DNA from: Trypanosoma brucei
Taxonomy: Eukaryota
Direction of reading: 5' to 3'
Assembly (NCBI GenBank): GCA_000002445.1
Contig: CP000069.1
Coordinates: 1,504,001 to 1,568,000 of the forward strand
DNA: 64,000 nt
Numbering within the stretch: position 1 is the stretch's first letter; the number at the start of each line of letters is the position of its first letter. Below the pieces are notes generated by a model. It did no database searches and had not been told where the DNA came from. It worked only from the letters and a program-made list of their open reading frames with translations. Below are positions 4,575 to 54,562 of this stretch, piece by piece. The translations under genes and the position numbers were made by a program.

Positions 4575-4790
4575 CTTATCATAATATTAGTATATAAACA
4601 TACTCATAACACAGTCACAACACCCACTTCCATCACTATTACTATAACTATCATTATTATTATTATTACTATTACTATTATTATTATTACTGTTTTTATT
4701 ATAATATTCGTATGTACACTCTCACAACACACTCCTTTCATTATTTTTATTATAAATACTATAACACTAATTAATATCCACAAAATAAAC
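4575..4790 (-). repeat. 70-bp repeat block (about 2-3 copies)
   Basis: Two cores (cttatcataatattagtatataaacatactcataacac and tattataatattcgtatgtacactctcacaacac) separated by an (ATT/ACT)n tract. Confidence 0.85.
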
Positions 4791-5043
4791 TAAATAAACA
4801 AAATTATAATATTACTTTCTTTTCATACCCTATCGCCACACTACTTTCCACTAAGGGGAAAATTTCATACTTGGCTTTCATATTTTTCTTATTTATTAAG
4901 GTTTTACTAATTTAAACAATTCTCATTTAAAAAATCTTAAAAGTATAAAAATTTCGCAAATTATAGAAATTTATCTCAACGTAGGAAATTTCGTAGATTT
5001 CACAAATTGAGAAAAAATATTTAACCAATAATTCTTAAAAGTT

Positions 5044-6516
5044 TTATAGAGCTAAAAATTCCAGCAAAATAGGGGCCTTGTTAATGACAAAAGAATTGCT
5101 TTCGGTGGTGTTTGTGATTTTACCATTAGTCCCTGTTGTCTCTGTAACTTTAGCTTCGCATTTTCCATCTTTGAATTCACAGCCAACCTTTTCGTTGCAT
5201 TTGCCCTCGTCAGTTTCTCCCTTGCATTCTTTGTTATTTTCCGGTGCTGCTGCTGTGACTGATTCAACTTTCTTCTGCGCTTTCTCTTTTCTGTATTGGT
5301 CTCCTAAACAAAAGCCTATCGCTCTTGCATAGTCCTCGGTACCACTTATCGACACTATACCTTTGTTAACGTGTTTGTCGCCGATTTTGAAATCTAGTTT
5401 GTTTGCTTCCATGTCCTTTAAGAATTTGTCATGTACTGTTGTTTTTCCTTCACCTACAAGTGCTACTACTGCTTCCTTTTGTTTGTCGGTGTCTGGGAGT
5501 TCCGCCGTTGGTCCAGCTGTTATGAGCATTGCGGCTTCTTGCACATCTTTTTGTTCCTTTAGGGCGTCCATAGTTAACTGGCTCAGTGTCTCTGGTTCCG
5601 TGACGGTCTGCCTGCGGCCATTGCATATGGCATACCCTGCTGCTTTGGCTGTTACAAAAGCTTTCTTGTCGGAGTCCTGGTCGTCTTCACAGTCTGTACC
5701 GTCTCCTTTGCTTTTTATCGTGTTTTTAGTTGGCGTATTCCAGTCGGCTTTGCGGGCGAAGTTTGTTAGGATTATGCCTTTAGCAACGCTTCCAAGTTTG
5801 TTGCTTCTGTCGCCAGTGTCGACGCATGCTATCTTCTTGTTGTGGGTCGCCGGCGTGGCCGAACCGTAGTCGCCTTTGTTGCCTATGTCGGCTGCTATGT
5901 CTGTTAATTGAAAAGCCTTGTCGTGGATCGCCTGATACGAATCAAGGTTTTGAACGTTGTTTACGTCGTCGTTGATGGCAGGGTCATTGACGAGTGATGA
6001 TTGGCAGCCGTGCTCGTTCTTAGGTGGCTGTGTGATCGTTACACTACATGATTTAGCGCCGGCCCCGCCTATTAGATCGGATTTCTGCGCTGAAGCATCG
6101 TGGCTTATTGTCAAGTCGCCTTTGGTGTTGAATGCGATTGCTGCCATGAGCTGAGCGTTTCTCCGTTTTAGAGTTTCGATACTAGCTTTTAGCTGCTTTA
6201 CAGCGTCGGCATTTGCTTCAGTGGCAGCCGCTCTAGAACTCCCTATTGACGCTAGCATCCGGGTCGCTTTTTTGGTCTTATGGTCTGTTGCTAGACATGC
6301 AGCTGCGTCCAGTGCTTCCGCTTCCTTGAGTAATTGACTTTTCTTGGCTGCCAGTCCATCTATTTTCTGCTTGAACGCTGCTGCCAATTTGTCGTTGAAA
6401 GCCACCTCGTGACAGGCTGCTTTGACCGTTGTTGAGTCTTTGTTGGTTGCTATTGGCTGCGTTGCCACCATCAGCAATATTTCGACGTACGGAAGCTGAA
6501 GTTGAAAGTGGTGCAT
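5044..6516 (-). CDS. VSG: Variant surface glycoprotein, apparently intact (A-type N-domain, about 490 aa; ORF extends upstream to 6621)
   Basis: Uninterrupted 525-aa minus-strand ORF. The probable start is MHHFQLQLPYVEILLMVATQPIA at about 6516. Ala/Lys-rich helices and conserved Cys are present. The C-terminus is ...CEFKDGKCEAKVTETTGTNGKITNTTESNSFVINKAPILLEFLAL, a classic VSG GPI-anchor signal (S + 17 residues). A 3'UTR follows. Confidence 0.85.
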   Translation of the reverse strand: MHHFQLQLPYVEILLMVATQPIATNKDSTTVKAACHEVAFNDKLAAAFKQKIDGLAAKKSQLLKEAEALDAAACLATDHKTKKATRMLASIGSSRAAATEANADAVKQLKASIETLKRRNAQLMAAIAFNTKGDLTISHDASAQKSDLIGGAGAKSCSVTITQPPKNEHGCQSSLVNDPAINDDVNNVQNLDSYQAIHDKAFQLTDIAADIGNKGDYGSATPATHNKKIACVDTGDRSNKLGSVAKGIILTNFARKADWNTPTKNTIKSKGDGTDCEDDQDSDKKAFVTAKAAGYAICNGRRQTVTEPETLSQLTMDALKEQKDVQEAAMLITAGPTAELPDTDKQKEAVVALVGEGKTTVHDKFLKDMEANKLDFKIGDKHVNKGIVSISGTEDYARAIGFCLGDQYRKEKAQKKVESVTAAAPENNKECKGETDEGKCNEKVGCEFKDGKCEAKVTETTGTNGKITNTTESNSFVINKAPILLEFLAL

Positions 6517-13874: not shown

Positions 13875-16013
13875 CTAGATAGCGGAATATCCTGTTGGTA
13901 TTGTTGGCCCTATCGCTGCATGTTGCGGGTTGCACCATCGGCACTGTGGAGGCACACTCGGGTTGATCTTTCGCAACATCCATCCATAGTGTCTTGAAGA
14001 CACAACCCGAAAGCGTGCCCGTGCCGTTTCTTCTTCCCTCGTCAGTTCTTCTTTATGTTTTGTTGGAAAGTGGTTGCCCGTGATACCAAACCTATGAGTG
14101 TTCTCATGGACTTCTTCCGACCTAAGCACTCGCTTCGCATAAGCAATGATGTCGGGGATCCATGTGTCTCGCAACTGTGGTAAATCTGCGGCCTTTTTGG
14201 CCATTTCATCGCAAACCTCATTCCGTTTCATGCCACAATGGCCAAACACAAATTGCAGTCGGATACACACCTTTCTTCTCTGAACTTGAAGCAGAAGCCT
14301 CCATAGTCGTCTTAGAATTGGGTCCGTTACGGCTAGGGGGCCTGTCTGCAGTGCTGTTAACATTGACAGCGAGTCAGAGAAGATGGACAACCTGCTCGGT
14401 GTGCTTCTGTATGCCGGAAGCCATTTCAGCAGCCTTTGCAGTCCTATCTCTAATGCTACGCATTCCGCTCTGTAACTGCATGAGAGTTCCCCTGCTCCAG
14501 TTTTGGGTGCACAAATCAGCGTGTTGCTTCTGTAGAGCAGGGCAGCTGCTCCGGACTTCTCACCGAGGGACATGGGTCCATCAGTCCACAATTCGTAGTG
14601 CTCTCGCCGCGGTGGCTCCTTCCCCCTCCGTGCAAAATGCCGTTCAATCCACTTTTCGGAAGCCTCCCTTTTGACATCGTCAGGGTCATCAGCGCACACA
14701 GGCTTTATCTGCGTGTGAAATATCGGTCGGCAGCTGTGGCGGAGCGTCGATGTCTCTAGTGGGTGCTCGCGTGGCTCAATGTGGAGGTGGGGATAGGACC
14801 GCATGATGCGGGAATGTAGGACTCTGACTGGATGTTTGCTGTGGTATACTTCTTCAGCACTGCGCCGTAAACATCCGCCTCGTGACTCACACATCAGCAT
14901 GAATTTCATGCTGCGCACAAGAGTGGTCGTCTTGAGTGGCAGGAGGTTTGCTTCCAGCAGAGAGTTCTCTTTGAGCTTCCCATGTTGTATGCCGGCTATG
15001 ATGCGACTGGCTTTGTGTTGTGCTGCTGCAAGGAGGTCGCGACTTCGTTCCGAAGCGTCCCAGTACCATACCTCAATGCCATACATGGTGTGTGCCTGTA
15101 CGAGTGCTAGATAAAAAGCTCTCAGTACTTGTCTTCTTGGCTCCCATGTAGAAGCTGAGATGGCTGCTATCTGCAGTAGTCTAAAATCCATCTTGCGTCT
15201 CGTTTCTGCAGCATGTGTTGCCATCCCCTGCAGACACTGGAATGTTACTCCTAGAAGCTTCGGTGTCCTGCCAGCTCCTATTCTTTTGCCGTCCAGTTGT
15301 AATGTAAGGGGGTGGCGCTCTATACACCCGAAGAGTGTGCACATTGTTTTCGCTACATTGACAGACATGAAGTACTCTTTTGACCACTGTAACACCACGG
15401 TTAGGCCGCATTGTAGTGTGTGGTTGATGGCATCCCTCTCTGTGTGCCTCGCAAGTAGCGTCAGGTTGTCTGCAAAGAATCCGTGCTGCAGTAACGGCAC
15501 TTCTGCAAGGCATTGGCTCAACGAGTTCATGACAATAATGAACATGATTGGACCAAGGACAGTTCCTTGTGGCACTCCTCGCTCAAATGTTCTGCTTCTG
15601 GAGAGCTTCTCCTTGAATCTCACTCTGCCAGTTCGGTTACTCAGAAATGATACGCACCACTTCACAATGTGGGGTGATACCTTCATTCTGTGCATTTCCC
15701 TCGCAATTTTGTCGTGGTCTACTGTATCAAATGCCTTCTCGTAGTCGACGAATACAGCACCCGTACGATATTGGTGCGTGGGGCGGCAGAGGGCAGCGCG
15801 GACGTGCAGGAGTTGTTCGAGCGTTGAGCATCCGGGGCGAAAGCCTGATTGCTGCGGCGTCAGCTGGGACTCAACAGTGTCTCTAAGCCTCGCGGCAATT
15901 ATGCGTTCCATGACTTTGCAGAGACAGCTCGTGAGCGTCACAGGCCTGTAAGAATCGAGGTCCTCCGCCTTTTTCCGGCCTTCAGGATGGGGATGATAAC
16001 ACCAGTCTTCCAT
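13875..16013 (-). CDS. ingi reverse transcriptase - RNase H ORF segment (712 aa, uninterrupted up to the truncation point)
   Basis: RT motifs are present (e.g. FVDYEKAFDTVDHDKIAREM..., FADNLTLLARH as the YXDD-like region). RNase H follows (ELWTDGPMSLGEKSGAAALLYRSNTL...). The ORF ends a few codons past the point where ingi homology stops. Confidence 0.85.
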   Translation of the reverse strand: MEDWCYHPHPEGRKKAEDLDSYRPVTLTSCLCKVMERIIAARLRDTVESQLTPQQSGFRPGCSTLEQLLHVRAALCRPTHQYRTGAVFVDYEKAFDTVDHDKIAREMHRMKVSPHIVKWCVSFLSNRTGRVRFKEKLSRSRTFERGVPQGTVLGPIMFIIVMNSLSQCLAEVPLLQHGFFADNLTLLARHTERDAINHTLQCGLTVVLQWSKEYFMSVNVAKTMCTLFGCIERHPLTLQLDGKRIGAGRTPKLLGVTFQCLQGMATHAAETRRKMDFRLLQIAAISASTWEPRRQVLRAFYLALVQAHTMYGIEVWYWDASERSRDLLAAAQHKASRIIAGIQHGKLKENSLLEANLLPLKTTTLVRSMKFMLMCESRGGCLRRSAEEVYHSKHPVRVLHSRIMRSYPHLHIEPREHPLETSTLRHSCRPIFHTQIKPVCADDPDDVKREASEKWIERHFARRGKEPPRREHYELWTDGPMSLGEKSGAAALLYRSNTLICAPKTGAGELSCSYRAECVALEIGLQRLLKWLPAYRSTPSRLSIFSDSLSMLTALQTGPLAVTDPILRRLWRLLLQVQRRKVCIRLQFVFGHCGMKRNEVCDEMAKKAADLPQLRDTWIPDIIAYAKRVLRSEEVHENTHRFGITGNHFPTKHKEELTREEETARARFRVVSSRHYGWMLRKINPSVPPQCRWCNPQHAAIGPTIPTGYSAI

Positions 16014-17661
16014 GCAGGCGGCACGACTCCCGTTCGTAGGCTCTCATTGAATAGCCTCACAACAACATTCAGCGCTGTTCTGCCGAGATGTTGCAGTGCC
16101 TCGTTGTATAAGCAATCAGGTCCGGCTGCGGATCCACTAGGTAGCAGTTTGATCGATCTCCGTAGTTCAGCCATCGTGATGGGACTGAACTCACTCGCTA
16201 TCGTCTTTATTGGTGCCGGTGGGTGTGAGTCGGGGTGCCTTCTTGCGCGGGAAGAGTACAGTTTACTGAACCTCTCAGCTTGACGGTAGTCCGTGATGGC
16301 CGCGTTATCAACAAGTACAGCCGGTGTGGTTAGTGGTCGTGGCGCATATACCTTCTTGACAATGTGCCAACTGCAGCGGTCTGACACCGCAAGTCTGGAG
16401 CATAGCGTGCTCCATCTCTTCTTTGTGGTACGGTCCAGGATCTGCTTACGCGTGGCTACCAACTTTTCCCTTCGGTGGGAGGGTCCGCATCCAGCGATCT
16501 CTTCATCGAGTTTCGCGAGCTCAGGTGTCCAATGTGGTGGCGTTGCTCTGCAGCCACGGGGGACGGAGACCTTCGTCGCAATGCGGATGGCGGAGCTCAA
16601 TTTCTGTTCCAGGGTGTTGACATTCTTCTCTCTACCAATTTTCCTGCAGAGCTCGTCAACCTTGAGACGGAAATTCCTCCAGTCAGCTTTTAGCCATGCG
16701 TACATGGGCTTTCGAAGCCGCGGGCAGCTCAGTGCATCTGTGTCGTCTCCAAAGATAACGTCGAAAAATATGTGATGGTGATCGCTATCGGGAGAATACA
16801 GCGATGTCCACGTGTACACTGTGCAATTCCTTGACAGTGTCACATCAGGGGTGGACTCCCCGTGGTGGCGCGCGTACCTGGTGCACTCACCAGTGTTGCA
16901 GACCAGAAACTGGTTGTCAATGCACCACTGTGTGAGGGTTTCACCCTTGGTATTTGGTGGGCTCGCGCGATCCCATGCCAACGCGTGTGCGTTAGCGTCT
17001 GCACCGATGAGCTGGGCACCGTCAGTCGTCAGAAGCGTATCTAGGTCAGTTGCCGTGAAGGTGTGTTTTGGTGGGATGTATGCCGACGTGACAGTCAGCG
17101 CCGTTCCACGTGCAAGGTGAATTGTTGCATGCACTTGTTCAATGCGACCAACAACGGCCATACCGGTCTCGACTGGTATGTCCTCTCACTAGTATTGATA
17201 CACCACCTCCTTTGCAGTTACGAGCTATTCCGTGATGTTGGTAGCCAGCAACGCTAAAGCAAGCCGCCTCTCCAGGCGTCATCCTTGTCTCGCTCAACAG
17301 ACAAAAGGCGATCCGCTCATCAACAAGGGTTTTGTGGAGTGCTAATCTCTTTCCTTGAGATAGTCCGGCGCAGTTCCACTGCATCCCGTGAAACGACAGG
17401 CAGGGATTCTCTTCCACATCACCGGACAGCAGCATCTTAGTGCGGATGATATACTGCTGATGGCACGCTGGCACGTGCTCAGGGACCGACAAATGAAAAA
17501 CGGTGTCCCAGCAAGACGCTGCTGATCCCTGTGCTGTATGATGCCGTAGCCGGAGCACAGCAGTGTTCCCTATGAAAGGAACGCTGCTGGCTCTTGGCTT
17601 CCCCCGATGATACGGGGTACTGGACCCTGGCACCACGTTGAGGTGGCCGGCATCGCCAGGG
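13892..17661 (-). mobile_element. ingi: ingi non-LTR retrotransposon, copy 1; 5' end intact, 3'-truncated (about 3.77 kb of about 5.25 kb)
   Basis: The 5' end (reverse complement at 17600-17661) reads GATGCCGGCCACCTCAACGTGGTGCCAGGGTCCAGTACCCCGTATCATCGGGGGAAGCCAAGAGCCAGCAG. Collinear and about 97-98% identical to the copy at 41740-46988. Homology stops abruptly at about 13892, after ...QHAAIGPTI in the protein. The zinc-finger region and 3' RIME half are absent. Confidence 0.9.
15938..17161 (-). CDS. ingi ORF segment (N-terminal region, 407 aa; follows the APE-like endonuclease segment present in the overlapping ORF 17139..17750)
   Basis: 407-aa ORF that is near-identical to the ORF at 42239..43462. 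The overlapping ORF 17139..17750(-) carries FHGMQWNCAGLSQGKRLALHKTLVDERIAFCLLSETRM, which is endonuclease-like. Confidence 0.8.
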   Translation of the reverse strand: MAVVGRIEQVHATIHLARGTALTVTSAYIPPKHTFTATDLDTLLTTDGAQLIGADANAHALAWDRASPPNTKGETLTQWCIDNQFLVCNTGECTRYARHHGESTPDVTLSRNCTVYTWTSLYSPDSDHHHIFFDVIFGDDTDALSCPRLRKPMYAWLKADWRNFRLKVDELCRKIGREKNVNTLEQKLSSAIRIATKVSVPRGCRATPPHWTPELAKLDEEIAGCGPSHRREKLVATRKQILDRTTKKRWSTLCSRLAVSDRCSWHIVKKVYAPRPLTTPAVLVDNAAITDYRQAERFSKLYSSRARRHPDSHPPAPIKTIASEFSPITMAELRRSIKLLPSGSAAGPDCLYNEALQHLGRTALNVVVRLFNESLRTGVVPPAWKTGVIIPILKAGKRRRTSILTGL

Positions 17662-20469: not shown

Positions 20470-21060
20470 GAAATGGCTTGTAAATACTCTTATCTGACTG
20501 CCATTCCTCACTTCCCTTTAGTAACTCTCCAAAAGCATATTCAAATTTTCTTAAACTCCCATACTCTGGCTATTAAACCGCCAACACTAAGATACGGTTT
20601 TCCACTAGGAGGTGATTTTAGTAAATGGGGTAATTTTTTATCCTCTTCTTTTCTGTAGCCCACATTGAAAAACCAGTAACATCTCTGCATATGCTCCTTG
20701 TGATCTGAGTTCATAATCAGATTCAACTGAGGAGCATAACACTCTGATGTTGTCATGAACATAATAGGGGAAATATGCTTCTCTTTTACTATATCTTCTT
20801 CACCAAATCTATCTTCATTATCAGCGCTATTTTGTACAAAATATTCCACAGCATTTTTATACTTATTTCCATCACTAACAATAACAGCAGATCCATTTAC
20901 AGTTATTACAATATCCTCATCACCTGCATTATGCATTTCCAAAAATTCCATAACTCATCTAGGCCTCTTAACATGACTATACAAACCTTCCATAGCAATT
21001 GTAATAATTTTAACATGGCTTATTTAGTACTTAATATTAGCCTGCACCATCCTTTAGTTG
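20470..21060 (-). repeat. Conserved VSG-upstream module, copy 1, carrying small ORF 20541..20951(-) (136 aa, acidic, ends ...GGLIARVWEFKKI)
   Basis: DNA and protein similarity to 24240-25040 and 47590-48130. Shared protein motifs are VITVNGS/VIV.DG.KY, MNSDH.EHM.RC and IARVWEF(K/R)KF. Confidence 0.6.
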
Positions 21061-24239: not shown

Positions 24240-25040
24240 CCCACTATTTATACCAAGTGAGATTTAATAGGATCTTTCTAGTCTTTTCCTTCCAGGATAA
24301 CGCACGTCCTTGAAAGTGAAGGAACGCAGCTTTTCTGAAGGAAGTTTCGTAATGGACTGAGAAAAACTGATCGTCGTAATCTAATCCAATCAACTCTCTT
24401 GGTAAAACTAATCTACCGCTTACTTTTGCTTCCCGTTTCACACTCCACAATAGCAACGGAATATAAATACTCTGTTCTGACCACCATTTCTTCCCGTCTT
24501 CTAATAACTCTCCAAATACATATTCAAATTTTCTTAATTCCCACACTCTTGCTATCAAACCATCACCACTAAGATAAGTTTTTCCACTAGGAGGTGATTT
24601 TACTAAATGAGGAAAGTTTTTATCCTCTTCTTTTCTGTGCCCAACATTAAAAACATAATATCATCTCTCCATATGCTTCTTGTGATGTGAGTTCATAATC
24701 AGATTCAACTAAAGTGCATAACATTGTGGAGTTGACACGAATAGAATTAAATAAATTTTTTGTCCCTTTACAATATTCTCTTCATTTTCTGCATAATTTT
24801 GTATAAAATATTCCACGGTATTTTAATATTTTTTCCATCAGAAATAATAACATCAGATCCAAAAAAAGCTATTATAATATCCTCATCACTTGCATTTTGT
24901 ATTTCTAAAATTCCATAACCCATCTAGGACTTTTAACATGACTATACAAACCTCCTATTGTAATTGTTATAATTTAAACATTGCTTAGTTTGTTACCTAA
25001 TAATATTCTACACCATCCTTTAGTTGCATGAGTTTGAACT
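24240..25040 (-). repeat. Conserved VSG-upstream module, copy 2 (ORF 24244..24558(-) begins MIARVWELRKFEYVFGELLEDGKKWW...)
   Basis: Nucleotide similarity to 20470-21060 (e.g. ...taactctccaaa.acatattcaaattttcttaa..tcccacactct.gctat.aaacc... and ...ccataac.catctagg.c.tttaacatgactatacaaacc...). The ORF is frameshifted relative to copy 1. Confidence 0.6.
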
Positions 25041-40939: not shown

Positions 40940-41040
40940 TTTTCATTATATTATTAGTACATACACATTCACAATACTTTCCTACTACAACTTTTTCTGT
41001 TATAACTCAAACTTATATTCACATAATTAGAAAAAAATTA
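40940..41040 (-). repeat. 70-bp repeat (about 1 copy, diverged)
   Basis: cattatattattagtacatacacattcacaatacttt. Confidence 0.7.
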
Positions 41041-41279
41041 TAATGACACTCATCTTTAATACTCTATCACCTTCCTGATTTGCACCCCTACGCACTTTTC
41101 ATACACATTTTACTATATCTATATTTTCAAAATAAATATTCATTATTTTTCAAATGCTTGACAAAAATTATTAAAATATATCACCTTTTAGTATATTTTT
41201 TAAAAACAGGAAATTTTATAAATTTAAACCAAAATATTTTAGAGTACTTTAAATATAATAGCAAAAATGCGAGCCAAAG

Positions 41280-41745
41280 AAAATCTTTGTTAATGACAAC
41301 AAAATTTCTTCCTGTGGTTTTTTTTCATCCTTTCTTCCTGTTGCTTCGTTCGTTACTTCTGCTCCTGCTTGTTGGTCCACCCAACTCATTGTGCACTTTT
41401 TCTTGGTTTTCTTTGCTTCTGAGTTCCATTCGCAGGGTTCTTGGTAATATCGTTATTTATCTTTGGCGTCGCAGTCTTTTTCCGTTTGTTCTCGCTTTTC
41501 TTTGCTAGAGGTAGGTACTTGGTCGCCAAGTGACTGCATTTTCTGCACTGGTAATTCTTCCTCCAGGCTAAAAATCAATACCTCCCTTTTTTCTGCTCCA
41601 ATTTATTGCCTTGTTTGTTGTCCTATGACCGCTGCTTTTAATTTGGTTGCCTCTGCCTGCTCCAGTGCTTTTCCTCTTCCCATTGACTTTTTTACGCAGT
41701 CTACGTCTTCGAATGCCGTCTGTTCTTTCTATCTGATACCCTGGA
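41280..41745 (-). pseudogene. VSG: VSG 3' fragment (C-terminal about 150 aa plus GPI signal), 5' part displaced by ingi insertion
   Basis: Reverse-complement translation gives ...SLEEELPVQKMQSLGDQVPTSSKEKREQTEKDCDAKDK... then ...CEWNSEAKKTKKKC... and a tail TTGRNFVVINKDFLWLAFLLL. A 3'UTR follows with 16-mer-like ttattaaaatatatca at 41168-41183. The coding sequence abuts the ingi 5' end at about 41745. Confidence 0.7.
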
Positions 41746-42238
41746 GATGCCGGCCACCTCAATGTGGTGCCAGGGTCCAGTACCCCGTATCATCGGGGGA
41801 AGCCAAGAGCCAGCAGCGTTCCTTTCATAGGGAACACTGCTGTGCTCCGGCTACGGCATCATACAGCACAGGGATCAGCAGCGTCTTGCTGGGACATCGT
41901 TTTTCATTTGTCGGTCCCTGAGCACGTGCCAGCGTGCCATCAGCAGTATATCATCCGCACTAAGATGCTGCTGTCCGGTGATGTGGAAGAGAATCCCTGC
42001 CTGTCGTTTCACGGGATGCAGTGGAACTGCGCCGGGCTATCTCAAGGAAAGAGATTAGCACTCCACAAAACCCTTGTTGATGAGCGGATCGCCTTTTGTC
42101 TGTTGAGCGAGACAAGGATGACGCCTGGAGAGGCGGCTTGCTTTAGCGTTGCTGGCTACCAACATCACGGAATAGCTCGTAACTGCAAAGGATGAGGTGT
42201 ATCAATACTAGTGAGAGGACATACCAGTCGAGACCGGT

Positions 42239-43462
42239 ATGGCCGTTGTTGGTCGCATTGAAAAAGTGCATGCAACAATTCACCTTGCACGTGGAACGGC
42301 GCTGACTGTCACGTCGGCATACATCCCACCAAAACACACCTTCACGGCAACTGACCTAGATACGCTTCTGACGACTGACGGTGCCCAGCTCATCGGTGCA
42401 GACGCTAACGCACACGCGTTGGCATGGGATCGCGCGAGCCCACCAAATACCAAGGGTGAAACCCTCACACAGTGGTGCATTGACAACCAGTTTCTGGTCT
42501 GCAACACTGGTGAGTGCACCAGGTACGAGCGCCACCACGGGGAGTCCACCCCTGATGTGACACTGTCAAGGAATTGCACAGTGTACACGTGGACATCGCT
42601 GTATTCTCCCGATAGCGATCACCATCACATATTTTTCGACGTTATCTTTGGAGACGACACAGATGCACTGAGCTGCCCGCGGCTTCGAAAGCCCATGTAC
42701 GCATGGCTAAAAGCTGACTGGAGGAATTTCCGTCTCAAGGTTGACGACCTCTGCAGGAAAATTGGTAGAGAGAAGAATGTCAACACCCTGGAACAGATAT
42801 TGAGCTCCGACATCTGCATTGCGACGAAGGTCTCCGTCCCCCGTGGCTGCAGAGCAACGCCACCACATTGGACACCTGAGCTCGCGAAACTCGATGAAGA
42901 GATCGCTGGATGCGGACCCTCCCACCGAAGGGAAAAGTTGGTAGCCACGCGTAAGCAGATCCTGGACCGTACCACAAAGAAGAGATGGAGCACGCTATGC
43001 TCCAGACTTGCGGTGTCAGACCGCTGCAGTTGGCACATTGTCAAGAAGGTATATGCGCCACGACCACTAACCACACCGGCTGTACTTGTTGATAACGCGG
43101 CCATCACGGACTACCGTCAAGCTGAGAGGTTCAGTAAACTGTACTCTTCCCGCGCAAGAAGGCACCCCGACTCACACCCACCGGCACCAATAAAGACGAT
43201 AGCGAGTGAGTTCAGTCCCATCACGATGGCTGAACTACGGAGATCGATCAAACTGCTACCGAGTGGATCCGCAGCCGGACCTGATTGCTTATACAACGAG
43301 GCACTGCAACATCTCGGCAGAACAGCGCTGAATGTTGTTGTGAGGCTATTCAATGAGAGCCTACGAACGGGAGTCGTGCCGCCTGCATGGAAGACTGGTG
43401 TTATCATCCCCATCCTGAAGGCCGGAAAAAGGCGGAGGACCTCGATTCTTACAGGCCTGTGA
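42239..43462 (+). CDS. ingi ORF segment (407 aa; about 98% identical to 15938..17161(-))
   Basis: MAVVGRIEKVHATIHLARGTALTVTSAYIPPKHTF... is near-identical to copy 1. Confidence 0.8.
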   Translation: MAVVGRIEKVHATIHLARGTALTVTSAYIPPKHTFTATDLDTLLTTDGAQLIGADANAHALAWDRASPPNTKGETLTQWCIDNQFLVCNTGECTRYERHHGESTPDVTLSRNCTVYTWTSLYSPDSDHHHIFFDVIFGDDTDALSCPRLRKPMYAWLKADWRNFRLKVDDLCRKIGREKNVNTLEQILSSDICIATKVSVPRGCRATPPHWTPELAKLDEEIAGCGPSHRREKLVATRKQILDRTTKKRWSTLCSRLAVSDRCSWHIVKKVYAPRPLTTPAVLVDNAAITDYRQAERFSKLYSSRARRHPDSHPPAPIKTIASEFSPITMAELRRSIKLLPSGSAAGPDCLYNEALQHLGRTALNVVVRLFNESLRTGVVPPAWKTGVIIPILKAGKRRRTSILTGL

Positions 43463-44496
43463 CGCTCACGAGCTGTCTCTGCAAAGTCATGGAGCGCATA
43501 TTTGCCACGAGGCTTAGAGACACTGTTGAGTCCCAGCTGACGCCGCAGCAATCAGGCTTTCGCCCCGGATGCTCAACGCTCGAACAACTCCTGCACGTCC
43601 GCGCTGCCCTCTGCCGCCCCACGCACCAATATCGTACGGGTGCTGTATTCGTCGACTACGAGAAGGCATTTGATACAGTAGACCACGACAAAATTGCGAG
43701 GGAAATGCACAGAATGAAGGTATCACCCCACATTGTGAAGTGGTGCGTATCATTTCTGAGTAACCGAACTGGCAGAGTGAGATTCAAGGAGAAGCTTTCC
43801 AGAAGCAGAACATTTGAGCGAGGAGTGCCACAGGGAACTGTCCTTGGCCCAATCATGTTCATTATTGTCATGAACTCGTTGAACCAGCGCCTTGCAGAAG
43901 TGCCGTTACTGCAGCACGGATTCTTTGCAGACAACCTGACGCTACTTGCGAGGCACACAGAGAGGGATGCCATCAACCACACACTACAATGCGGCCTAAC
44001 CGTGGTGTTACAGTGGCCAAAAGAGTACTTCATGTCTGTCAACGTAGCGAAAACGAAGTGCACACTCTTCGGGTTTATAGAGCGCCACCCCCTTACATTA
44101 CAACTGGACGGCAAAAGAATAGGAGCTGGCAGGACACCGAAGCTTCTAGGAGTAACATTCCAGTGTCTGCAGGGGATGGCAACACATGCTGCAGAAACGA
44201 GACGCAAGATGGATTTTAGACTACTGCAGATAGCAGCCATCTCAGCTTCTACATGGGAGCCAAGAAGACAAGTACTGAGAGCTTTTTATCTAGCACTCGT
44301 ACAGGCACACACCATGTATGGCATTGAGGTATGGTACTGGGACGCTTCGGAACGAAGTCGCGACCTCCTTGCAGCAGCACAACACAAAGCCAGTCGCATC
44401 ATAGCTGGCATACCGCATGGGACGCGCAAAGAGGACTCTCTGCTGGAAGCAAACCTCCTGCCACTCAAGACGACCGCTCTTGTGCGCAGCACGTAA
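43387..44496 (+). CDS. ingi reverse transcriptase segment (369 aa, terminated by stop, unlike copy 1)
   Basis: MEDWCYHPHPEGRKKAEDLDSYRPVTLTSCLCKVMERIFATRLRDT... with RT motifs. Confidence 0.85.
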   Translation: MEDWCYHPHPEGRKKAEDLDSYRPVTLTSCLCKVMERIFATRLRDTVESQLTPQQSGFRPGCSTLEQLLHVRAALCRPTHQYRTGAVFVDYEKAFDTVDHDKIAREMHRMKVSPHIVKWCVSFLSNRTGRVRFKEKLSRSRTFERGVPQGTVLGPIMFIIVMNSLNQRLAEVPLLQHGFFADNLTLLARHTERDAINHTLQCGLTVVLQWPKEYFMSVNVAKTKCTLFGFIERHPLTLQLDGKRIGAGRTPKLLGVTFQCLQGMATHAAETRRKMDFRLLQIAAISASTWEPRRQVLRAFYLALVQAHTMYGIEVWYWDASERSRDLLAAAQHKASRIIAGIPHGTRKEDSLLEANLLPLKTTALVRST

Positions 44497-44499
44497 TTC

Positions 44500-44904
44500 A
44501 TGCTGATGTGTGAGTCACGAGGCGGATGTTTGCGCCACAGTGCTGAGAAAGTATACCACAGCAAACACCCAGTCAGAGTCTTACATTCCCGCATCATGCG
44601 GTCCTATCCCCACCTCCACATTGAGCCACGCGAGCACCCACTAGAGACATCGACGCTCCGCCACAGTTGCCGACCGCTATTTCACACGCAGATAAAGCCC
44701 GTATGCGCTGATGACCCTGACGATGTCAAAAGGGAGGCTTCCGAAAAATGGATTGCACGGCATTTTGCACGGAGGGGGAAGGAGCCACCGCGGCGAGAGC
44801 ACTACGAATTGTGGACTGATGGATCCGTGTCCCTCGGTGAGAAGTCCGGAGCAGCTGCCCTACTCTATAGAAACAACACGCTGATTTGTGCACCCAAGAC
44901 CTGA
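44500..44904 (+). CDS. ingi RNase H-like segment
   Basis: ...HYELWTDGSVSLGEKSGAAALLYRNNTLICAPKT. Confidence 0.7.
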   Translation: MLMCESRGGCLRHSAEKVYHSKHPVRVLHSRIMRSYPHLHIEPREHPLETSTLRHSCRPLFHTQIKPVCADDPDDVKREASEKWIARHFARRGKEPPRREHYELWTDGSVSLGEKSGAAALLYRNNTLICAPKT

Positions 44905-45009
44905 GCAGAGGAACTCTCATGCAGTTACAGAGCGGAATGCGTAGCATTAGAGATAGGACTGCAACGGCTGCTAAAATGGCTTCCGGTATACAGAAGCACA
45001 CCGAGCAGG

Positions 45010-46182
45010 TTGTCCATCTTCTCTGACTCGCTGTCAATGTTAACAGCACTGCAGACAGGCCCCCTAGCCGTAACGGACCCAATTCTAAGACGACTATGGA
45101 GGCTTCTGCTTCAAGTTCAGAGAAGGAAGATACGTATCCGACTGCAATTTGTGTTTGCCCATTGTGGCGTGAAACGGAATGAGGTTTGCGATGAAATGGC
45201 CAAAAAGGCCGCTGACTTACCACAGTTGCGAGACACATGGATCCCCGACATCATTGCTTATGCGAAGCGAGTGCTTAGATCGGAAGAAGTCCATGAGAAC
45301 ACTCATAGGTTTGGTATCACGGGCAACCACTTTCCAACAAAACATAAAGAAGAACTGACGAGGGAAGAAGAAACGGCACGGGCACGCTTTCGGGTTGGGT
45401 CTTCAAGACACTATGGATGGATGTTGCGAAAGATCAACCCGAGTGTGCCTCCACAGTGCCGATGGTGCAACCCGCAACATGCAGCGATAGGACCAACAAT
45501 ACAAACAGCCCCACCTGTTGCGACACGCACTCTTCAGAGAACCTCCGAATCAAACAAATGTACGGAATGTGATGCCACATACCAATGCCGCTCGAGTGCT
45601 GTAACGCACATGGTAAACAAACACGGCTTTGTGCGAGCTGATGCCCTCCGGAGGATCAAATACGGCGATGCAACACCCGCAGTGGATATCCCCCCGGAGC
45701 CCCCTCCAGTGGTGGCGATCGTTCCTCTACCATCGAGCACACGAGTCCCGATGAGACCGCAGGTGCTTCATTGTACCCTCTGTGCCTCCAAATTCGCAGT
45801 GCCAGGCCGACTATTACACCACCTTAGAACAATACATGGCATAGGCAGCGGTAGTTGCCGCGTGAAAAGGGGGCGAGAGAACGAAGACTCAGTGCAAGGA
45901 GATGGTAGCGTCCCAGCAGCGCCAGCCTCTCAGGATACACGGAAGCTGCCGTTTCAATGTGACTTGTGCGAGGCGAGCTTCGGTACACACTCTTCCCTGT
46001 CACTACACAAGAAATTCAAACATAAGAGCATAGTGACGGAGGACGGTACCGTGGTGTTGGTGCAATTCCCTCGTAAGCGTGCCCGTGAGGGAAACGTTGA
46101 CGTCCCGGGGAAGGGCGAGGTGCAGTGTGGTGTGTGCCAAAAAAGTGCTCAGTTGCGGGGCCTCCCTCATCCGACACTGTAA
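45010..46182 (+). CDS. ingi C-terminal segment with C2H2 zinc fingers
   Basis: CTECDATYQCRSSAVTHMVNKHGF, HCTLCASKFAVPGRLLHHLRTIHG and FQCDLCEASFGTHSSLSLHKKFKHKS. Confidence 0.8.
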   Translation: MSIFSDSLSMLTALQTGPLAVTDPILRRLWRLLLQVQRRKIRIRLQFVFAHCGVKRNEVCDEMAKKAADLPQLRDTWIPDIIAYAKRVLRSEEVHENTHRFGITGNHFPTKHKEELTREEETARARFRVGSSRHYGWMLRKINPSVPPQCRWCNPQHAAIGPTIQTAPPVATRTLQRTSESNKCTECDATYQCRSSAVTHMVNKHGFVRADALRRIKYGDATPAVDIPPEPPPVVAIVPLPSSTRVPMRPQVLHCTLCASKFAVPGRLLHHLRTIHGIGSGSCRVKRGRENEDSVQGDGSVPAAPASQDTRKLPFQCDLCEASFGTHSSLSLHKKFKHKSIVTEDGTVVLVQFPRKRAREGNVDVPGKGEVQCGVCQKSAQLRGLPHPTL

Positions 46183-47089
46183 GGCTTTCCACAAAGGTGA
46201 GGGAGTCGAGCTTAAATGCAGCAAAATCACAAAATTGGGTGCCACTGATTCCCCGCATACAAACACATCCATGTTGGTGTGCCAGACAGGCGGAAGGCAG
46301 TGTGCTAGCAAAACTGGCCTCACCCTACATCAAAAGAAGATGCACGGTATGAGAGCAGAGCGCACTGTTACGAGCCAACGCGGCGACTGCAAAGAAACGT
46401 CGCTGCACCTGATGAGCTGTCCAGGTTTGAAGGAGTTACGTGTCAGGTTTGCGGTAGAGGGTGTGTGTGTACAAGATGTATGTTTCTCTAAAAGGCTGGC
46501 GCAATTTCTCATTGCGGTTGAACGGAGCCGGCCGCAGGTGAAGTCCTCACCTAAGGTAAAAGTCATACAACCCACTCTCCCTTCTGCAACTTCCCCCTTA
46601 TTTCTGAGAGTGGAGCTAGCAGGAAAAGCACCGGACGCATGAATAGTCCAGACACCCTCAGAGACAGAGGGGGTATGCAATCAACAAGCAACAGAAACAG
46701 AAAGAGGGAGAGAGAATAATAAACGAATAACAAAAATCAAAACAAAAGGATTGCTAATTGACATCTTCGGGAGAGTCTGGGGAGGGGTTCTTTTCGCCCC
46801 ATCTGCTGTAATGTGTTCAACTGCGGAGCTACAACAAAAATTATAGAGGGTGTGTTAGGATGAATAAAAAAGGGAGACTCTGCCACAGTCGCCAGACCGA
46901 TAGCATCTCAGGGCTCTACGGTGATGGCTGATGGCCGCGCCAGTGGGGGGAAACTCTCACGAAGACACGAAGAAAATTCAAAAAAAAACGAACACACTCT
47001 TCTTCGCACCCTTGTTTGGTGGTTAAGTAGAGTGCTTGTCGAACATTGTACAAGGGTAGATCCCAGGGGGCGGAGAGTATCTAGCTTAC

Positions 47090-47135
47090 ACTAAGAATGA
47101 ATCTGCCTCAATGTGGCGCCAGGGTCACGTACCAG
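47090..47135 (+). mobile_element. Short sequence resembling the ingi/RIME/DIRE 5' signature (possible degenerate element remnant)
   Basis: gcctcaatgtggcgccagggtcacgtacc compared with the ingi 5' gccggccacctcaatgtggtgccagggtccagtacc. It lies about 100 bp after the ingi poly(A). Confidence 0.35.
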
Positions 47136-47589
47136 AAGAGAAATCGACTGGAAAGCCAAATGTTCCATCCAAAAGTCGGTTGCAATACTGAATATGCTGT
47201 GGCTGCTCCATGAAGAAAGAACCATTACTTAGTGTTGCACCACGGTTCAGTACCCTGCTCAGGTGGGGGAACCAAAATCCCTGACCCAACTTCCGGCCGG
47301 GGAGGCAGATGGATATGGTAAACATGGTTCAGATGCAATGTGGGAGGGATCGAATGGGCGTCAAGTGGAGACCACCCCCCTAGACACGCACACATGCGGT
47401 CTCTCACCCGTGGGTATCAATTCTCCAAAAAACAGGGAATTTCAGTGGGTAGGCACGCTGGTCTCCAGCGCTGAGTCCCACACTACCATATCGTCGTGGC
47501 GTGGTGTGCGTAAATGCATTTCCTCCTTACCATCGGGTGGACAGACTGCATGGTCCTGAAGGTTGCGCGAGGGGAAAAAGTAACGGTTG

Positions 47590-48130
47590 ATTCTATCTTT
47601 AATCAGTTATTTTAAGCATTTCATTAACCGCCTTTTCAAACTTTTTGAATTCCCAAACTCTAGCTATTATGTCACCTTTATTGAAGTGTGCTTTATAGTT
47701 TGCAGGCCACTTTAACATATGAGTTAGTTTCTTTTGTTCCTCTTCTTGGCATGTTGCTTCAAAAAAAAACATGCGCACCTCTCCATATGCTCCCTGTGAT
47801 CTGAGTTCAAAGTCAAGTACAGCCGAAGCGCATAACACTTGGTAGTCGTTACAAATATAATGGGATAAACTTGTTTCTCTTTTACTACATCCTCCTCGCT
47901 AAACTTCCCTTCATTTTCCGCAGTGTTTTGTATAAAATACCCCACAGCGGTTTCATATTTTTCTCCGTCAGTAACAATAACATCAGATCCGTCAACAGTT
48001 ATCACAATATCCTCATCAATTTTATCCTGTTTTTTAAAAATTTACATAACCCATCTAGCTCTTTTGACATTGCTATGCAAGTTTCCCATAGCAATTGTAA
48101 TAATTTTAACATGGCTTAGTTTCGCACTCA
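47590..48130 (-). repeat. Conserved VSG-upstream module, copy 3 (ORFs 47724..48005(-) and 47599..47838(-), frameshifted)
   Basis: MITVDGSDVIVTDGEKYETAVGYFIQNTAENEG...LNSDHREHMERC... and ...GDIIARVWEFKKFEKAVNEMLKITD. It is homologous to the modules at 20470-21060 and 24240-25040. Confidence 0.6.
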
Positions 48131-49089
48131 GTATGTTTCCCGTCGTGTACACTTAGAGAAATAACGTGCTTAAACACACTAAATGTAATAACAATGATAA
48201 TAGCAAAGTTTTCAAGATACAAAACTATATTCCTAATCTACATTTAAAGTTTAAAAGTGCTATAAGAAAAATATTGAAACTTTAATAGAAGATGCCATTT
48301 GCGCCAATAAGATGTTTACATATATGAGTAATTCCTTAACATAGTTATGATATATGTGCCGATGTGTGTATTATCAGTGTATGAAACTTATTTTTGAAGG
48401 CGTACCTATAATTTTTTAAAAAAACTTTACTTTCAGTAACACATAGTGCCGCACACTATGTGTATTGCGTTGCTTTGCTGCATTGACAATTAGTGCCTAT
48501 GCATTTTTATTGGAATGAAGGTATCTAGTTGCAGTGATTAATTCTAACATGCTATAAAATTTGCCACCCTCGCTTGATGACTACCTCGACCATTCGCTAT
48601 CGTCAAGTGCCTCCAATCAAAATGGTTTCCGAACTATTTATATTGTTGTTTCAATCACATCCGTAGAAGAATCTATTTATTTGTGAGTGTATTTTAGAAC
48701 ACAACCTTCTCCTATATATTATTTTCTTTTATGCTTGTTGCAGTGCATGTTTCACTCCACATTTTTTCTCATATTTATTTCCTTCCGTCGCTGCTTATGC
48801 ATATTACGCAGTGACTTCATTTAGCCTTCAAACTGTTCTTTGTCCCTGCCTCTTCCCCATCTATTTGTGTATGATGAAAGCTATCGCCACTTTTCAACTT
48901 CAAACTGCGCATATTTTATCTATATCTCCTTCTTTCTTTTCTTAAATAGCATTATTTGTGTCTTCTCCCTGTCTTAATAACTGCACCACTCATTCACTTA
49001 CTCTCATCATACCATGGTAATTTTTTTCAACGGTTTAATTTTGTCTCTCCATTCGATCACTTAAAAAAACTTTCCTCATAATGTTAATA

Positions 49090-49160
49090 AATGCGCTTAA
49101 AACACTCTTTTATTATTACTATTAAAATAACAGATTAGAATATCACTCATTTTTAATATT
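49090..49160 (-). repeat. 70-bp repeat remnant (core deleted)
   Basis: cttaaaacactcttttattattactattaaaataacagattagaatatcactcatttttaatattc. It matches the flanks of the repeat at 52690-52830 but lacks the GTATATACACACTCACAAC core. Confidence 0.45.
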
Positions 49161-49233
49161 CTATCACTGTACACGTTACACCCATAGGCCACTCTCATAT
49201 ACATTTTACTATTTGGAACATTTTAATCAAAAA

Positions 49234-49249
49234 GTGTTAAATTATATCA
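49234..49249 (-). promoter_or_regulatory. VSG 3'UTR 16-mer (1 mismatch)
   Basis: gtgttaaattatatca. Confidence 0.65.
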
Positions 49250-49301
49250 AAATTAATTTTTTTTCGTATATTCTCTAAATATTCAAATAAATCAAATTTT
49301 A

Positions 49302-53009: not shown

Positions 53010-54562
53010 ACAAACTCAAAAAAAAAAGCATTCATCAGAGTCAGTTTCTTATTTAAAATAATACTGGAATCCTTGCAAGTTTCACCTTCTCATTTGCCAT
53101 TTGTGTGACCTTCACATTTTGCCTTATAAGTTCCGTGTCTTGCACAACCAGTTGTCGTTCTTCCTGCACCAGCCCGTGCTTGTGTTGCTATTTGCTCTGC
53201 TGCTCTTGTATTCAATTTGCAGTGGGGACCATCGTCGTCATTTTCGCTTTTCCATTCGCAAGCCGGCTTGTTTTCTCTGCACTCACCTACTTTGGTTATT
53301 GCTTCGCATTCTTTGTTGGTTTCTTCTAATGTTTTCGTGGACTTCACAGTTTCAGTGCCGCGAGATTGTTTTATTTCCTTTGAAAGTTTTACTTGCGTGT
53401 TATGCAAGTGTAGTAAATTCGTTAGGGTTTTGTTTAAGCTGTTTATTCTCTCCATCAGTGACGCTTTGTGCCGTGCTGCGCCAGCTTCTGTGTCTAAGGC
53501 CGCCGCTGCTTGCTGAAGCGGTTCCAGCCAGGCTGGTCTGTTGCTGCTCGTCGCCGTTTTGCCATAGTTGACACATGCACCTTTGCCGGAGTTGTCATTG
53601 TTTCCGTCGCAGTTCCCGGCTGTTGCTGAGCCGTGTGTGTCTCCTAGGTATCCAATTTTTTGGTCAGTGCCGTGCGGAGCGTTTATGAGTTGCGCTACCT
53701 GCCTGATGGTCTGCCTGATGTCGCTCGCTGAAATTTGGGAGTTTGTTGGATCGAATTGCTTGCAGCCTGCTTTGAGCTTTTTCCAGGCCGCTGCGTGGTT
53801 GAAGTCGGCGCCGTTGTAAGTTACCGTTGCCGCCCCGTTTGCTAAGCAAGCCTTGTTGTCCGTCGCGCTGTTTGAACCGCAAATACAAATTAAATCTTCC
53901 GCTATCGATTTACCCGCCGCTTTCCCGGCCGTTTCTACTTTTCCGCAGGTGGTCTCTCGATCCGATGCTGCGTCAGTTAGGTGCACTGCATCGTCTGTTT
54001 CTGCGTTGCCCAGTGCCGCTGTCTTCAAGAGCTCTTTGCTCGACTTCCCTGCTGAAGTTTGAGGTTGATGTTTGTATCGCTCTATTGCGTTTTTTAACAG
54101 TTCCACTGTTCTGTTGATTTCTGGAAGCATGGTGCTCGGGGTTTCAGTGTTTCTTATTAGGTGGTCGCCAAGCGTATCCCCTCTGCTTTTCAAGTATTTT
54201 GCCGCGTCAACACAGTCGGTTGCTTTGTCCTTGCCGCAAAGTTCTTCCAGTTTTTCTTTTGGGTTCTTCAGCTCTGCTGCCTGGTCTGCCGCTGCCGCTA
54301 GCGAGTTTAGACTGTCTGTGTCGCGAAGGTAGAGCTGCAGGAGCTTGGCTGTTTTCGTCGTGTCTTCATCGATTACTCCTGTACTCGTTGCTTGTGGCGT
54401 GTTTTCTAGGGCGTTGACCACGACGCAGAGTGTGCCGTATAGGGCCGTATTTTCTCCTTTGCTCAGCTCTGTTGCTGCCACCGGCGACCACAGATTTGCT
54501 GACACGATTATTGCCGTTAACGCCATGATATCGAATGCTACCTTCAAAGTTTGTGGCTTCAT
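53010..54562 (-). pseudogene. VSG: VSG with intact 490-aa ORF through the N-domain but premature stop before the last C-terminal-domain Cys/GPI signal
   Basis: ORF 53090..54562(-) starts MKPQTLKVAFDIMALTAIIVSANLWSPVAA (signal peptide). It has B-type motifs (DLICICGSNSATDNKACLANG and GYLGDTHGSATAGNCDGNNDNSGKGACVNYG). It ends ...CEGHTNGK* (TGA), followed in frame by EGETCKDSSIILNKKLTLMNAFFF..., a degenerate GPI signal with no proper stop. Confidence 0.8.

What the first reader, a model, noticed from the sequence alone, without database searches (positions are those of the whole stretch)
41280..47600. Full-length ingi inserted inside a VSG coding sequence; the VSG 5' half is missing on the far side
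Minus-strand VSG C-terminal coding sequence (about 150 aa plus GPI signal plus 3'UTR) runs uninterrupted up to 41745, where the ingi 5' signature starts. Beyond the ingi poly(A) at 46988 there is no VSG N-terminal sequence. Instead there is an unrelated 0.6 kb (46990-47600) carrying a second, degenerate ingi/RIME-like 5' signature at 47090-47135, then the conserved upstream module. Simple insertion would leave the VSG N-domain immediately downstream of the poly(A). Its absence implies an additional deletion or an ingi-mediated ectopic recombination that removed about 1 kb of VSG plus upstream sequence.
Basis: partly seen in the sequence, partly recalled or inferred. Interest (0 to 1): 0.6.

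Follow-up and report, generated by a model that had tools for sequence, protein, structure and literature searches.

The report
ingi plus TbSIDER2 in truncated VSG
A catalogued 5.25-kb ingi retrotransposon sits head-to-tail with a catalogued short retroposon (TbSIDER2) in a silent trypanosome surface-antigen gene array, next to a dead gene that has lost its front two thirds; this is ordinary transposon-linked erosion, not a new kind of element.

Summary
The window is Trypanosoma brucei brucei TREU927 chromosome 6, about 1,504,001-1,568,000, a minus-strand silent VSG array. The ingi runs 41739-46988, not from 41745. It is 5,250 bp, full length but coding-dead, and is already listed as "Complete INGI" in a published table.

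The 5' flank is the last ~160 codons plus 3'UTR of a VSG pseudogene. It has three in-frame stops and a frameshift, so it is not an uninterrupted reading frame. No VSG N-terminal sequence lies beyond the poly(A).

The "unrelated 0.6 kb" is not unrelated. Window 47009-47579 is a TbSIDER2 retroposon. With its flanks it is 100% identical to a copy printed in a 2014 paper, and its two tandem Pr77 hallmarks explain the "second signature".

The ingi has no target-site duplication. Its 5' flank scores as a real ingi endonuclease target, but its 3' flank is not the partner. Compared with the closest sister cassette, about 1.45 kb is missing (roughly 0.9 kb VSG N-domain plus 0.5 kb spacer).

Best reading: an ingi-associated deletion, most likely recombination between two same-orientation ingi copies. 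A simple deletion and an assembly collapse are the main rivals. Low interest; already known kind.

The parts
41168..41183 (-). VSG 3'UTR 16-mer (TGATATATTTTAATAA) marking the 3' end of the truncated VSG cassette
   Evidence: 14 matches to TGATATATTTTAACAC at 3 or fewer mismatches against 1.06 expected by chance; 13 are on the minus strand, one per VSG cassette.
41249..41738 (-). VSG pseudogene 3' fragment, about 160 codons: end of the N-domain/hinge, the Cys-containing C-terminal domain (EKDCDAKDK 41456-41482, CEWNSE 41417-41434) and a GPI-signal-like tail (41256-41306, in another frame). In-frame stops at 41729-31, 41603-05 and 41453-55.
   Evidence: It aligns in the same order with the C-terminal thirds of window VSGs (for example residues 395-460 of the 490-aa VSG at 53090-54562). 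It gives no Pfam hit and no hit in the protein database.
41706..41739 (+). ingi4-type endonuclease target signature plus the presumptive 5' TSD copy (TCTATCTGATAC 41728-41739, or TTCTATCTGATA 41727-41738)
   Evidence: A PWM built from 41 published ingi 5' flanks scores 8.9, the 99.94th percentile of the window, in the register ending at 41739. The median of known sites is 7.5. The score is 8.3 after removing RHS-like flanks. Against the local background p is about 0.025.
41739..46988 (+). Full-length ingi (5,250 bp), non-coding copy. Features: 79-bp 5' signature 41739-41817; endonuclease about 42305-42631; RT about 43429-44157; RNase H about 45079-45213; C2H2 region about 45550-46025; A9 tail 46980-46988.
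   Evidence: Listed as NC_007279 1545739..1550988 'Complete INGI' with an identical 100-bp 5' flank.
46989..47008 (+). 20-nt spacer between the ingi tail and TbSIDER2: CGAACACA plus CTCTTCTTCGCA. The latter fits the ingi TSD pattern xTxTxxT.
   Evidence: The 12-mer right after the tail scores -6.0, below all 41 known TSDs. The 12-mer abutting SIDER2 scores +2.9, the 96.6th percentile.
47009..47579 (+). TbSIDER2 retroposon (571 bp) with two tandem Pr77/79-bp hallmarks (CCCTTG at 47009 plus 47094-47175, and 47228-47293) and a short A-rich end
   Evidence: Window 46987-47601 is 615/615 identical to 'Tb927_06_v4:1,550,987..1,551,601' in Additional file 1 of PMC4035085. It is 80-89% identical to four other published copies.
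47580..47602 (+). 11 nt (GTAACGGTTGA) followed by TTCTATCTTTAA, a 9/12 match (first 8 exact) to the 12-mer upstream of the ingi
   Evidence: TTCTATCT occurs only 5 times on the + strand of the window, and 9/12 matches occur 46 times. Status is unresolved and it is probably chance.
47603..48134 (-). Conserved VSG-upstream module, shared with the cassettes at 20508-21037 and 24523-24991. It contains a degenerate copy (47641-48017) of a 136-aa ORF that is intact at 20541-20951.
13892..17661 (-). Second ingi copy (positions 1-3772), inverted relative to the first and 3'-truncated. Included as context and comparison.
   Evidence: Listed as NC_007279 1517892..1521661.

Best explanation
This is one cassette of the right-hand subtelomeric silent VSG array of T. 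b. brucei TREU927 chromosome 6. An ancient TbSIDER2 sits at the VSG-proximal edge of the conserved upstream module. A young, full-length but coding-dead ingi lies head-to-tail 20 nt upstream of it. Both are antisense to the VSGs. The ingi's other end abuts codon ~330 of a degenerate VSG pseudogene.

The two ingi flanks belong to two different target sites. The 5' flank is a proper endonuclease target in the VSG. The 3' flank is the re-used target next to TbSIDER2.

The favoured mechanism is two independent ingi insertions in the same orientation, one in the VSG and one in tandem with TbSIDER2. Homologous recombination between them then left one chimeric full-length ingi and deleted about 1.45 kb (VSG N-domain plus 5' spacer).

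Shown: the anatomy, the identities of the elements, the absence of a TSD and the size of the gap. Inferred: the order of events and the recombination itself.
For: Identity and anatomy:
- Exact match to the published TbSIDER2 copy and to published ingi coordinates and flank.
- Pfam domains and 98% identity to copy B.

No TSD:
- The 5' 12-mer is TTCTATCTGATA and the 3' 12-mer is CGAACACACTCT.

The 5' junction is an endonuclease target:
- It scores at the 99.94th percentile on a PWM that reproduces Bringaud's ingi4 signature (signature as given in PMC3820030).

The TbSIDER2 5' side is a preferred ingi target:
- Four of five independent published TbSIDER2 flanks score at or above the 96.6th percentile on the same PWM.
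- The 12-mer abutting this SIDER2 fits the TSD pattern.
- Tandem ingi-clade arrangements produced by target re-use are described in PMC3820030.

Gap size:
- Sister cassette U20 has 1,711 bp between the points that align to 41502 and 47603.
- Only about 280 bp of non-retroposon DNA remains between those points here.

Recombination among retroposon copies operates at this locus:
- A 271-bp perfectly identical conversion tract lies inside this SIDER2.
- ingi A versus B divergence is mosaic.
- ingi B is 3'-truncated.
- PMC2854126 states that ingi/RIME recombine and cause rearrangements.
Against: - It needs two insertions plus one crossover, whereas a single insertion plus one deletion is more economical.
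- Tandem elements are normally separated by the 12-nt TSD only. Here 8 extra nt (CGAACACA) are unexplained.
- The PWM support at the 5' junction needs a 1-nt register shift. It falls to p about 0.025 against the locally enriched background. Counting only the ten published consensus positions by hand, the same register matches 6 of 10, which is not significant.
- No crossover point can be located, because only one partial comparison copy is available.
- No reciprocal partner flank exists in the published genome-wide ingi table.
Confidence: 0.45

Rival explanations
1. A single ingi insertion into the VSG, with one deletion. Either the insertion itself deleted the target, or a later microhomology-mediated deletion ran from the A-tail to 20 nt upstream of TbSIDER2. 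Either way the 3' TSD copy, the VSG N-domain and the spacer were removed.
For: It is the most economical account (one insertion, one deletion). The 5' junction is a good target. The deletion's left end falls in an A-run, a plausible microhomology. MMEJ dominates break repair without long homology in T. brucei (title and abstract of PMC2377438, listed).
Against: If the 20 nt were native SIDER2 flank, its recognition half (CGAACACA) fits the target signature poorly, unlike four other SIDER2 copies. A deletion ending exactly at the ingi tail is a coincidence. If reverse transcription had started at the SIDER2-side site, the good target motif at the 5' junction would also be a coincidence.
Confidence: 0.25
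2. Assembly artefact. Two ingi copies about 98-99% identical and 5.2 kb long were collapsed in the reference assembly. This would create an apparent chimeric ingi and an apparent loss of the interval between them.
For: The result has exactly the signature of a collapse: a full-length repeat with mismatched flanks and a missing interval. Subtelomeric arrays are repeat-rich. PMC2854126 notes that such regions are hard to resolve.
Against: There is no internal anomaly in the ingi (it matches 1-5254 of the reference element). I recall that the reference was built clone by clone, but I did not check this here. It cannot be tested with these tools.
Confidence: 0.1
3. The VSG was already a 3' fragment before any ingi arrived. 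C-terminal fragments are common in the silent archive. On this view the ingi merely landed at or near the junction, and the missing TSD has a separate cause.
For: From my recollection of Marcello & Barry 2007 (not checked here), VSG gene fragments, mostly C-terminal, are a sizeable class of the archive. The fragment is old and degenerate, with 3 stops and a frameshift, while the ingi is young.
Against: It still needs an extra event to remove the TSD. The fragment ends exactly at the ingi 5' end, and a target motif is in register there. The fragment's 5' part is not homologous to the spacer of sister cassettes (z = 0).
Confidence: 0.1
4. 3' transduction. A read-through ingi transcript carried 20 nt, the TbSIDER2 and 11 nt of downstream DNA, and the whole 5.85-kb composite was inserted at one site flanked by TTCTATCT.
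For: TTCTATCTGATA (41727-41738) and TTCTATCTTTAA (47591-47602) share 9/12 positions with 8 contiguous. The 8-mer occurs only 5 times in 64 kb on this strand. The second copy sits within about 12 nt of the point where homology to sister cassettes begins.
Against: Three mismatches in 12 is too many for a TSD of a young insertion. There is no A-tail before the putative 3' TSD. The match was found post hoc. It requires the VSG fragment to have already abutted the module at exactly that point. No near-identical source SIDER2 is among the published copies; the best is 89%.
Confidence: 0.05

Closest known systems
Tbingi (ingi4 subclade) non-LTR retrotransposon of T. brucei
   Same: 5,250 bp, the 79-bp 5' signature, endonuclease-RT-RNase H-zinc finger order, an A-tail and a target-site signature upstream. 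This very copy is in a published genome-wide table.
   Different: There is no 12-bp TSD. The ORF is broken into at least 5 pieces, so it is not an autonomous copy.
TbSIDER2 (short interspersed degenerate retroposon 2; Bringaud 2007, Sanchez-Luque 2014)
   Same: 571 bp, two tandem Pr77 hallmarks and an A-rich end. It is 100% identical to the published chr6 copy.
   Different: Its original upstream recognition sequence has been replaced by the ingi tail. No TSD is recognisable. It carries a 271-bp conversion tract from the other chr6 copy.
Tandem ingi-clade arrangements produced by re-use of one target site (ingi/RIME, Tvingi/TvSIDER1; PMC3820030)
   Same: Head-to-tail, same orientation, with the younger autonomous element upstream of an older short one. 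A 12-mer that fits the TSD pattern abuts the older element.
   Different: The spacer is 20 nt, not 12. The matching TSD copy upstream of the ingi is absent.
Retroelement recombination-mediated deletions and L1 target-site deletions in mammals (from my own knowledge)
   Same: A full-length element with flanks from two different sites, and loss of the DNA between them.
   Different: A different element clade and host. Here neither the crossover nor the pre-deletion allele has been observed.
VSG gene fragments of the silent archive (from my own knowledge of Berriman 2005 and Marcello & Barry 2007)
   Same: A C-terminal-domain-only pseudogene with the 3'UTR 16-mer, in an array cassette.
   Different: Here the truncation point coincides exactly with a retrotransposon 5' end.

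Membership tests
Tbingi | 79-bp 5' signature starting CCCTGG | tested here: met
   41739-41817. Exact 18-mer GTGCCAGGGTCCAGTACC. 98% identical to copy B.
Tbingi | About 5.25 kb encoding endonuclease, RT, RNase H and C2H2 in that order | tested here: met
   5,250 bp. Pfam PF14529 (1.4e-13) and PF00078 (1.7e-42) clear their cut-offs. PF00075 (5e-5, 23.9 bits) is just under its 25.8-bit cut-off. The C2H2 hits are sub-threshold. The frame is broken.
Tbingi | 3' poly(A) | tested here: met
   A9 at 46980-46988.
Tbingi | 12-bp target-site duplication | tested here: not met
   TTCTATCTGATA versus CGAACACACTCT. No match of 10/12 or better anywhere on the + strand of the window.
Tbingi | ingi4 target signature upstream (AxxxxxxxTxxxGTxGGxTxxx^xTxTxxTxxxxx) | tested here: inconclusive
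   The PWM score is at the 99.94th percentile only with a +1 register shift, and at the 90th percentile in register. Local p is about 0.025.
TbSIDER2 | 558-587 bp with sequence similarity to the family | tested here: met
   571 bp. 100% identical to the published chr6 copy and 80-89% to four others.
TbSIDER2 | Two tandem Pr77 hallmarks at the 5' end | tested here: met
   47106-47133 and 47228-47280 match ingi 13-40 and 14-67. The feature is described in PMC4035085.
TbSIDER2 | A-rich 3' end | tested here: met
   GAGGGGAAAAA at 47569-47579, shorter than in other copies.
TbSIDER2 | Flanking TSD and upstream ingi4 signature | tested here: inconclusive
   The 5' 12-mer fits the TSD pattern, but no 3' partner is found. 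The recognition half is overwritten by the ingi tail.
VSG (T. brucei variant surface glycoprotein gene) | Conserved 3'UTR 16-mer | tested here: met
   41168-41183, 2 mismatches.
VSG (T. brucei variant surface glycoprotein gene) | C-terminal domain with a GPI signal | tested here: inconclusive
   It aligns with window VSG C-terminal domains (E = 1e-4 to 0.02). Pfam PF10659 does not hit. The GPI-like tail is out of frame.
VSG (T. brucei variant surface glycoprotein gene) | N-terminal domain (Pfam VSG_B or Trypan_glycop) | tested here: not met
   Absent on both sides of the retroposons.

The most novel reading that the evidence does not exclude
The ingi, the 20-nt spacer, the TbSIDER2 and 11 nt of downstream DNA were inserted together as one read-through (3'-transduced) retrotransposition product. 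The product is bounded by the TTCTATCT direct repeat at 41727 and 47591. This would be the first evidence that ingi can mobilise flanking DNA and resurrect an extinct SIDER.
Probability: 0.05. Interest if true: 0.45.

Novelty: already known. Interest (0 to 1): 0.13.

Why it matters
It matters little beyond bookkeeping. Both retroposons are already catalogued in the reference genome. Retroposon insertion and retroposon-driven rearrangement in T. brucei subtelomeres are established.

The locus is a tidy worked example of how ingi-clade elements erode the silent VSG archive. One cassette is reduced to a C-terminal-domain donor, and a 5.8-kb antisense retroposon block sits between its upstream module and the remaining coding sequence.

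It also shows that a dead SIDER marks a target site that a live ingi can re-use. If the two-ingi intermediate exists in other strains, the locus could serve as a dated example of retroposon-mediated contraction of a VSG array.

Tried and rejected
1. Direct TSD at the ingi ends: none.
2. Homology of the ingi 5' flank (41520-41738) to the spacer of sister cassettes, which would have meant it was not VSG: rejected, z = 0 and -1.3 against a positive control of z = 15.
3. The second chr6 TbSIDER2 copy as an 'empty site' for the ingi 3' junction: its 22-nt flanks are not significantly similar to ours (p = 0.86 and 0.26), so it cannot be used.
4. Inversion between the two inverted ingi copies in the window: rejected, because all VSGs between them keep the array orientation and the flanking 12-mers do not cross-match.
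5. Finding the full-length VSG paralogue or other SIDER2 loci in external data: the protein searches found nothing. Exact-protein look-ups failed. No T. brucei nucleotide collection is available.
6. Rfam on 41000-48500: only a chance sub-threshold miRNA hit, and no ribozyme family.
7. A reciprocal partner flank in the published ingi table: none.
8. Rows in that table at NC_007279 145809, 121521 and 89450 look like extra copies. They are the same elements offset by 1,399,930.
9. A 70-bp-repeat probe did not detect a repeat in this cassette's upstream region, so I make no claim about it.


Full report
**Where the window comes from**

Window 46987-47601 is identical over all 615 bases to a sequence printed in Additional file 1 of Sanchez-Luque et al. 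2014 (PMC4035085). That sequence is labelled 'Tb927_06_v4:1,550,987..1,551,601' under 'Trypanosoma brucei SIDER2 sequences'.

Independently, Supplementary File 1 of Khan et al. 2015 (PMC4660242) lists two ingi entries that match this window:
- NC_007279 1545739..1550988, plus strand, both ends complete, 'Complete INGI'. Its 100-bp upstream flank equals window 41640-41739.
- NC_007279 1517892..1521661, minus strand, ingi positions 1-3771, 3'-truncated.

Both map onto the window with the same offset of 1,504,000. The window is therefore T. b. brucei TREU927 chromosome 6, about 1,504,001-1,568,000.

It is a silent VSG array on the minus strand. Thirteen copies of the VSG 3'UTR 16-mer lie on that strand. 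ORFs between them hit Pfam VSG_B and Trypan_glycop_C.

**Checking the observation**

It ends in an A9 tract at 46980-46988.
- Its first 3,772 bases are 98% identical to the inverted copy at 13892-17661.
- Its broken reading frame still gives endonuclease, reverse transcriptase and RNase H hits in the expected order, plus weak zinc-finger hits.

The 5' flank read on the minus strand is the 3' end of a VSG.
- The 16-mer is at 41168-41183.
- A Cys-containing C-terminal domain aligns with that of the VSG at 18.7 kb (E = 1e-4).
- The fragment as a whole aligns in the same order with the last third of several window VSGs.

It is a pseudogene rather than an open coding sequence. It has three in-frame stops and a frameshift before the GPI-signal-like tail. 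It gives no Pfam hit.

Beyond the poly(A) nothing resembles a VSG. A tblastn of 24 VSG pieces from the window against 46989-49250 gives nothing better than E = 0.1, while a control cassette gives hits.

**What the far-side 0.6 kb is**

It is a TbSIDER2, one of the roughly dozen copies of an extinct short retroposon of the ingi clade (PMC2323293).
- The element spans 47009-47579 (571 bp).
- It is 80-89% identical to four other published copies.
- It carries the two tandem Pr77/79-bp hallmarks that define the family.
- It lies in the same orientation as the ingi, 20 nt downstream of the ingi tail.
- Its 3' end abuts the conserved VSG-upstream module within about 25 nt. Homology of that module to the cassettes at 20.5 kb and 24.5 kb begins at 47603.

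**How much is missing**

In the closest sister cassette (18.4-22.3 kb), the points that align with 41502 and 47603 are 18797 and 20508, which is 1,711 bp apart.

Here the same interval contains 236 bp of VSG, the two retroposons and about 43 bp of other sequence. About 1.45 kb is therefore absent, roughly 0.9 kb of VSG N-domain and 0.5-0.6 kb of 5' spacer.

**The junctions**

There is no TSD. The 12-mer before the ingi is TTCTATCTGATA and the 12-mer after the tail is CGAACACACTCT.

I built a position weight matrix from 41 non-redundant ingi 5' flanks in the Khan table. It reproduces the published ingi4 target signature.
- Out of sample, the flank of this ingi scores 8.9 when the register is shifted by one base, so that the first C of CCCTGG is counted as target. 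That is the 99.94th percentile of all window positions and above the median (7.5) of known sites. In register it reaches only the 90th percentile.
- The result survives removal of RHS-type flanks. However, the antisense strand of the VSG fragment is locally rich in such sites, so a fair p-value is about 0.025.
- On the TSD half of the matrix, the 12-mer just after the tail scores below all 41 known sites. The 12-mer abutting the SIDER2 (CTCTTCTTCGCA) fits well.
- Four of five independent published TbSIDER2 flanks score high on the same matrix. This confirms that a SIDER2 marks an ingi-type target.

**Mechanism**

The two flanks of this ingi look like halves of two different target sites. I favour two same-orientation ingi insertions, one in the VSG and one re-using the SIDER2 target. 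Homologous recombination between them then left one chimeric element and deleted the interval.

Several things fit this:
- Tandem arrangements by target re-use are described for this clade.
- ingi/RIME recombination is a recognised cause of rearrangements (PMC2854126).
- This locus shows other traces of exchange between retroposon copies. A 271-bp perfectly identical tract lies inside this SIDER2, shared with the copy 45 kb away, while the rest differs by about 23%. Divergence between the two ingi copies is mosaic, 0.8% in positions 1-2000 against 3.5% in 2001-3500. The second ingi has a 3' truncation.

None of this proves the crossover. The following cannot be excluded from the window alone:
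- A single insertion plus one deletion is more economical.
- An assembly collapse across two ingi copies would look identical.
- The VSG may already have been a fragment.

One oddity remains. TTCTATCT recurs 11 nt after the SIDER2 (47591), matching the ingi 5' flank at 9 of 12 positions. I treat this as probably chance. It could instead mark a 3'-transduction event.

**Comparison and verdict**

Both elements are known and individually catalogued. Retroposon insertion in VSG regions and ingi-mediated rearrangement are known phenomena. External searches for paralogues failed, because no T. brucei nucleotide collection is reachable and the protein collections returned nothing.

The finding is ordinary.

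Noticed in passing
window 47082-47352: This TbSIDER2 shares a 271-bp perfectly identical block with the other chr6 copy (Tb927_06_v4:1,596,247..1,596,869). The rest of the two elements differs by about 23%. This is a clear gene-conversion tract between copies 45 kb apart.
   Followed up: partly
window 13892-17661 (minus strand): The second ingi is truncated at its 3' end (position 3772), which reverse transcription does not produce. It abuts VSG-upstream-type sequence. The published table lists another ingi at NC_007279 1484112..1489590 with the identical 100-bp 5' flank, which implies a segmental duplication about 32 kb away.
   Followed up: partly
window 20541-20951 (minus); degenerate copies at 24526-24908 and 47641-48017: The conserved VSG-upstream module contains a 136-aa ORF that is intact in one cassette and broken in two others. 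Amino-acid identity is 59-64%. It gives no Pfam hit and no homologue in the protein collection.
   Followed up: partly
window 41739-45510 versus 17661-13892: Divergence between the two ingi copies is mosaic: 16 differences in positions 1-2000 but 53 in positions 2001-3500. This suggests that one of them is a patchwork of ingi lineages.
   Followed up: partly
window 41200-41760, + strand: The antisense strand of the VSG C-terminal fragment is enriched in sequences that score as ingi endonuclease targets. There are 9 sites at or above the 99.5th percentile in 560 nt, about three times the expectation.
   Followed up: no
window 47603-49234: A 70-bp-repeat-like probe taken from 18150-18245 hits nine other cassettes in the window but nothing in the upstream region of this cassette.
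   Followed up: no
window 47591-47602: TTCTATCTTTAA, 11 nt after the TbSIDER2, matches the 12-mer upstream of the ingi (TTCTATCTGATA) at 9 of 12 positions, with 8 contiguous. The 8-mer occurs only 5 times on this strand of the window. This remains unexplained.
   Followed up: partly
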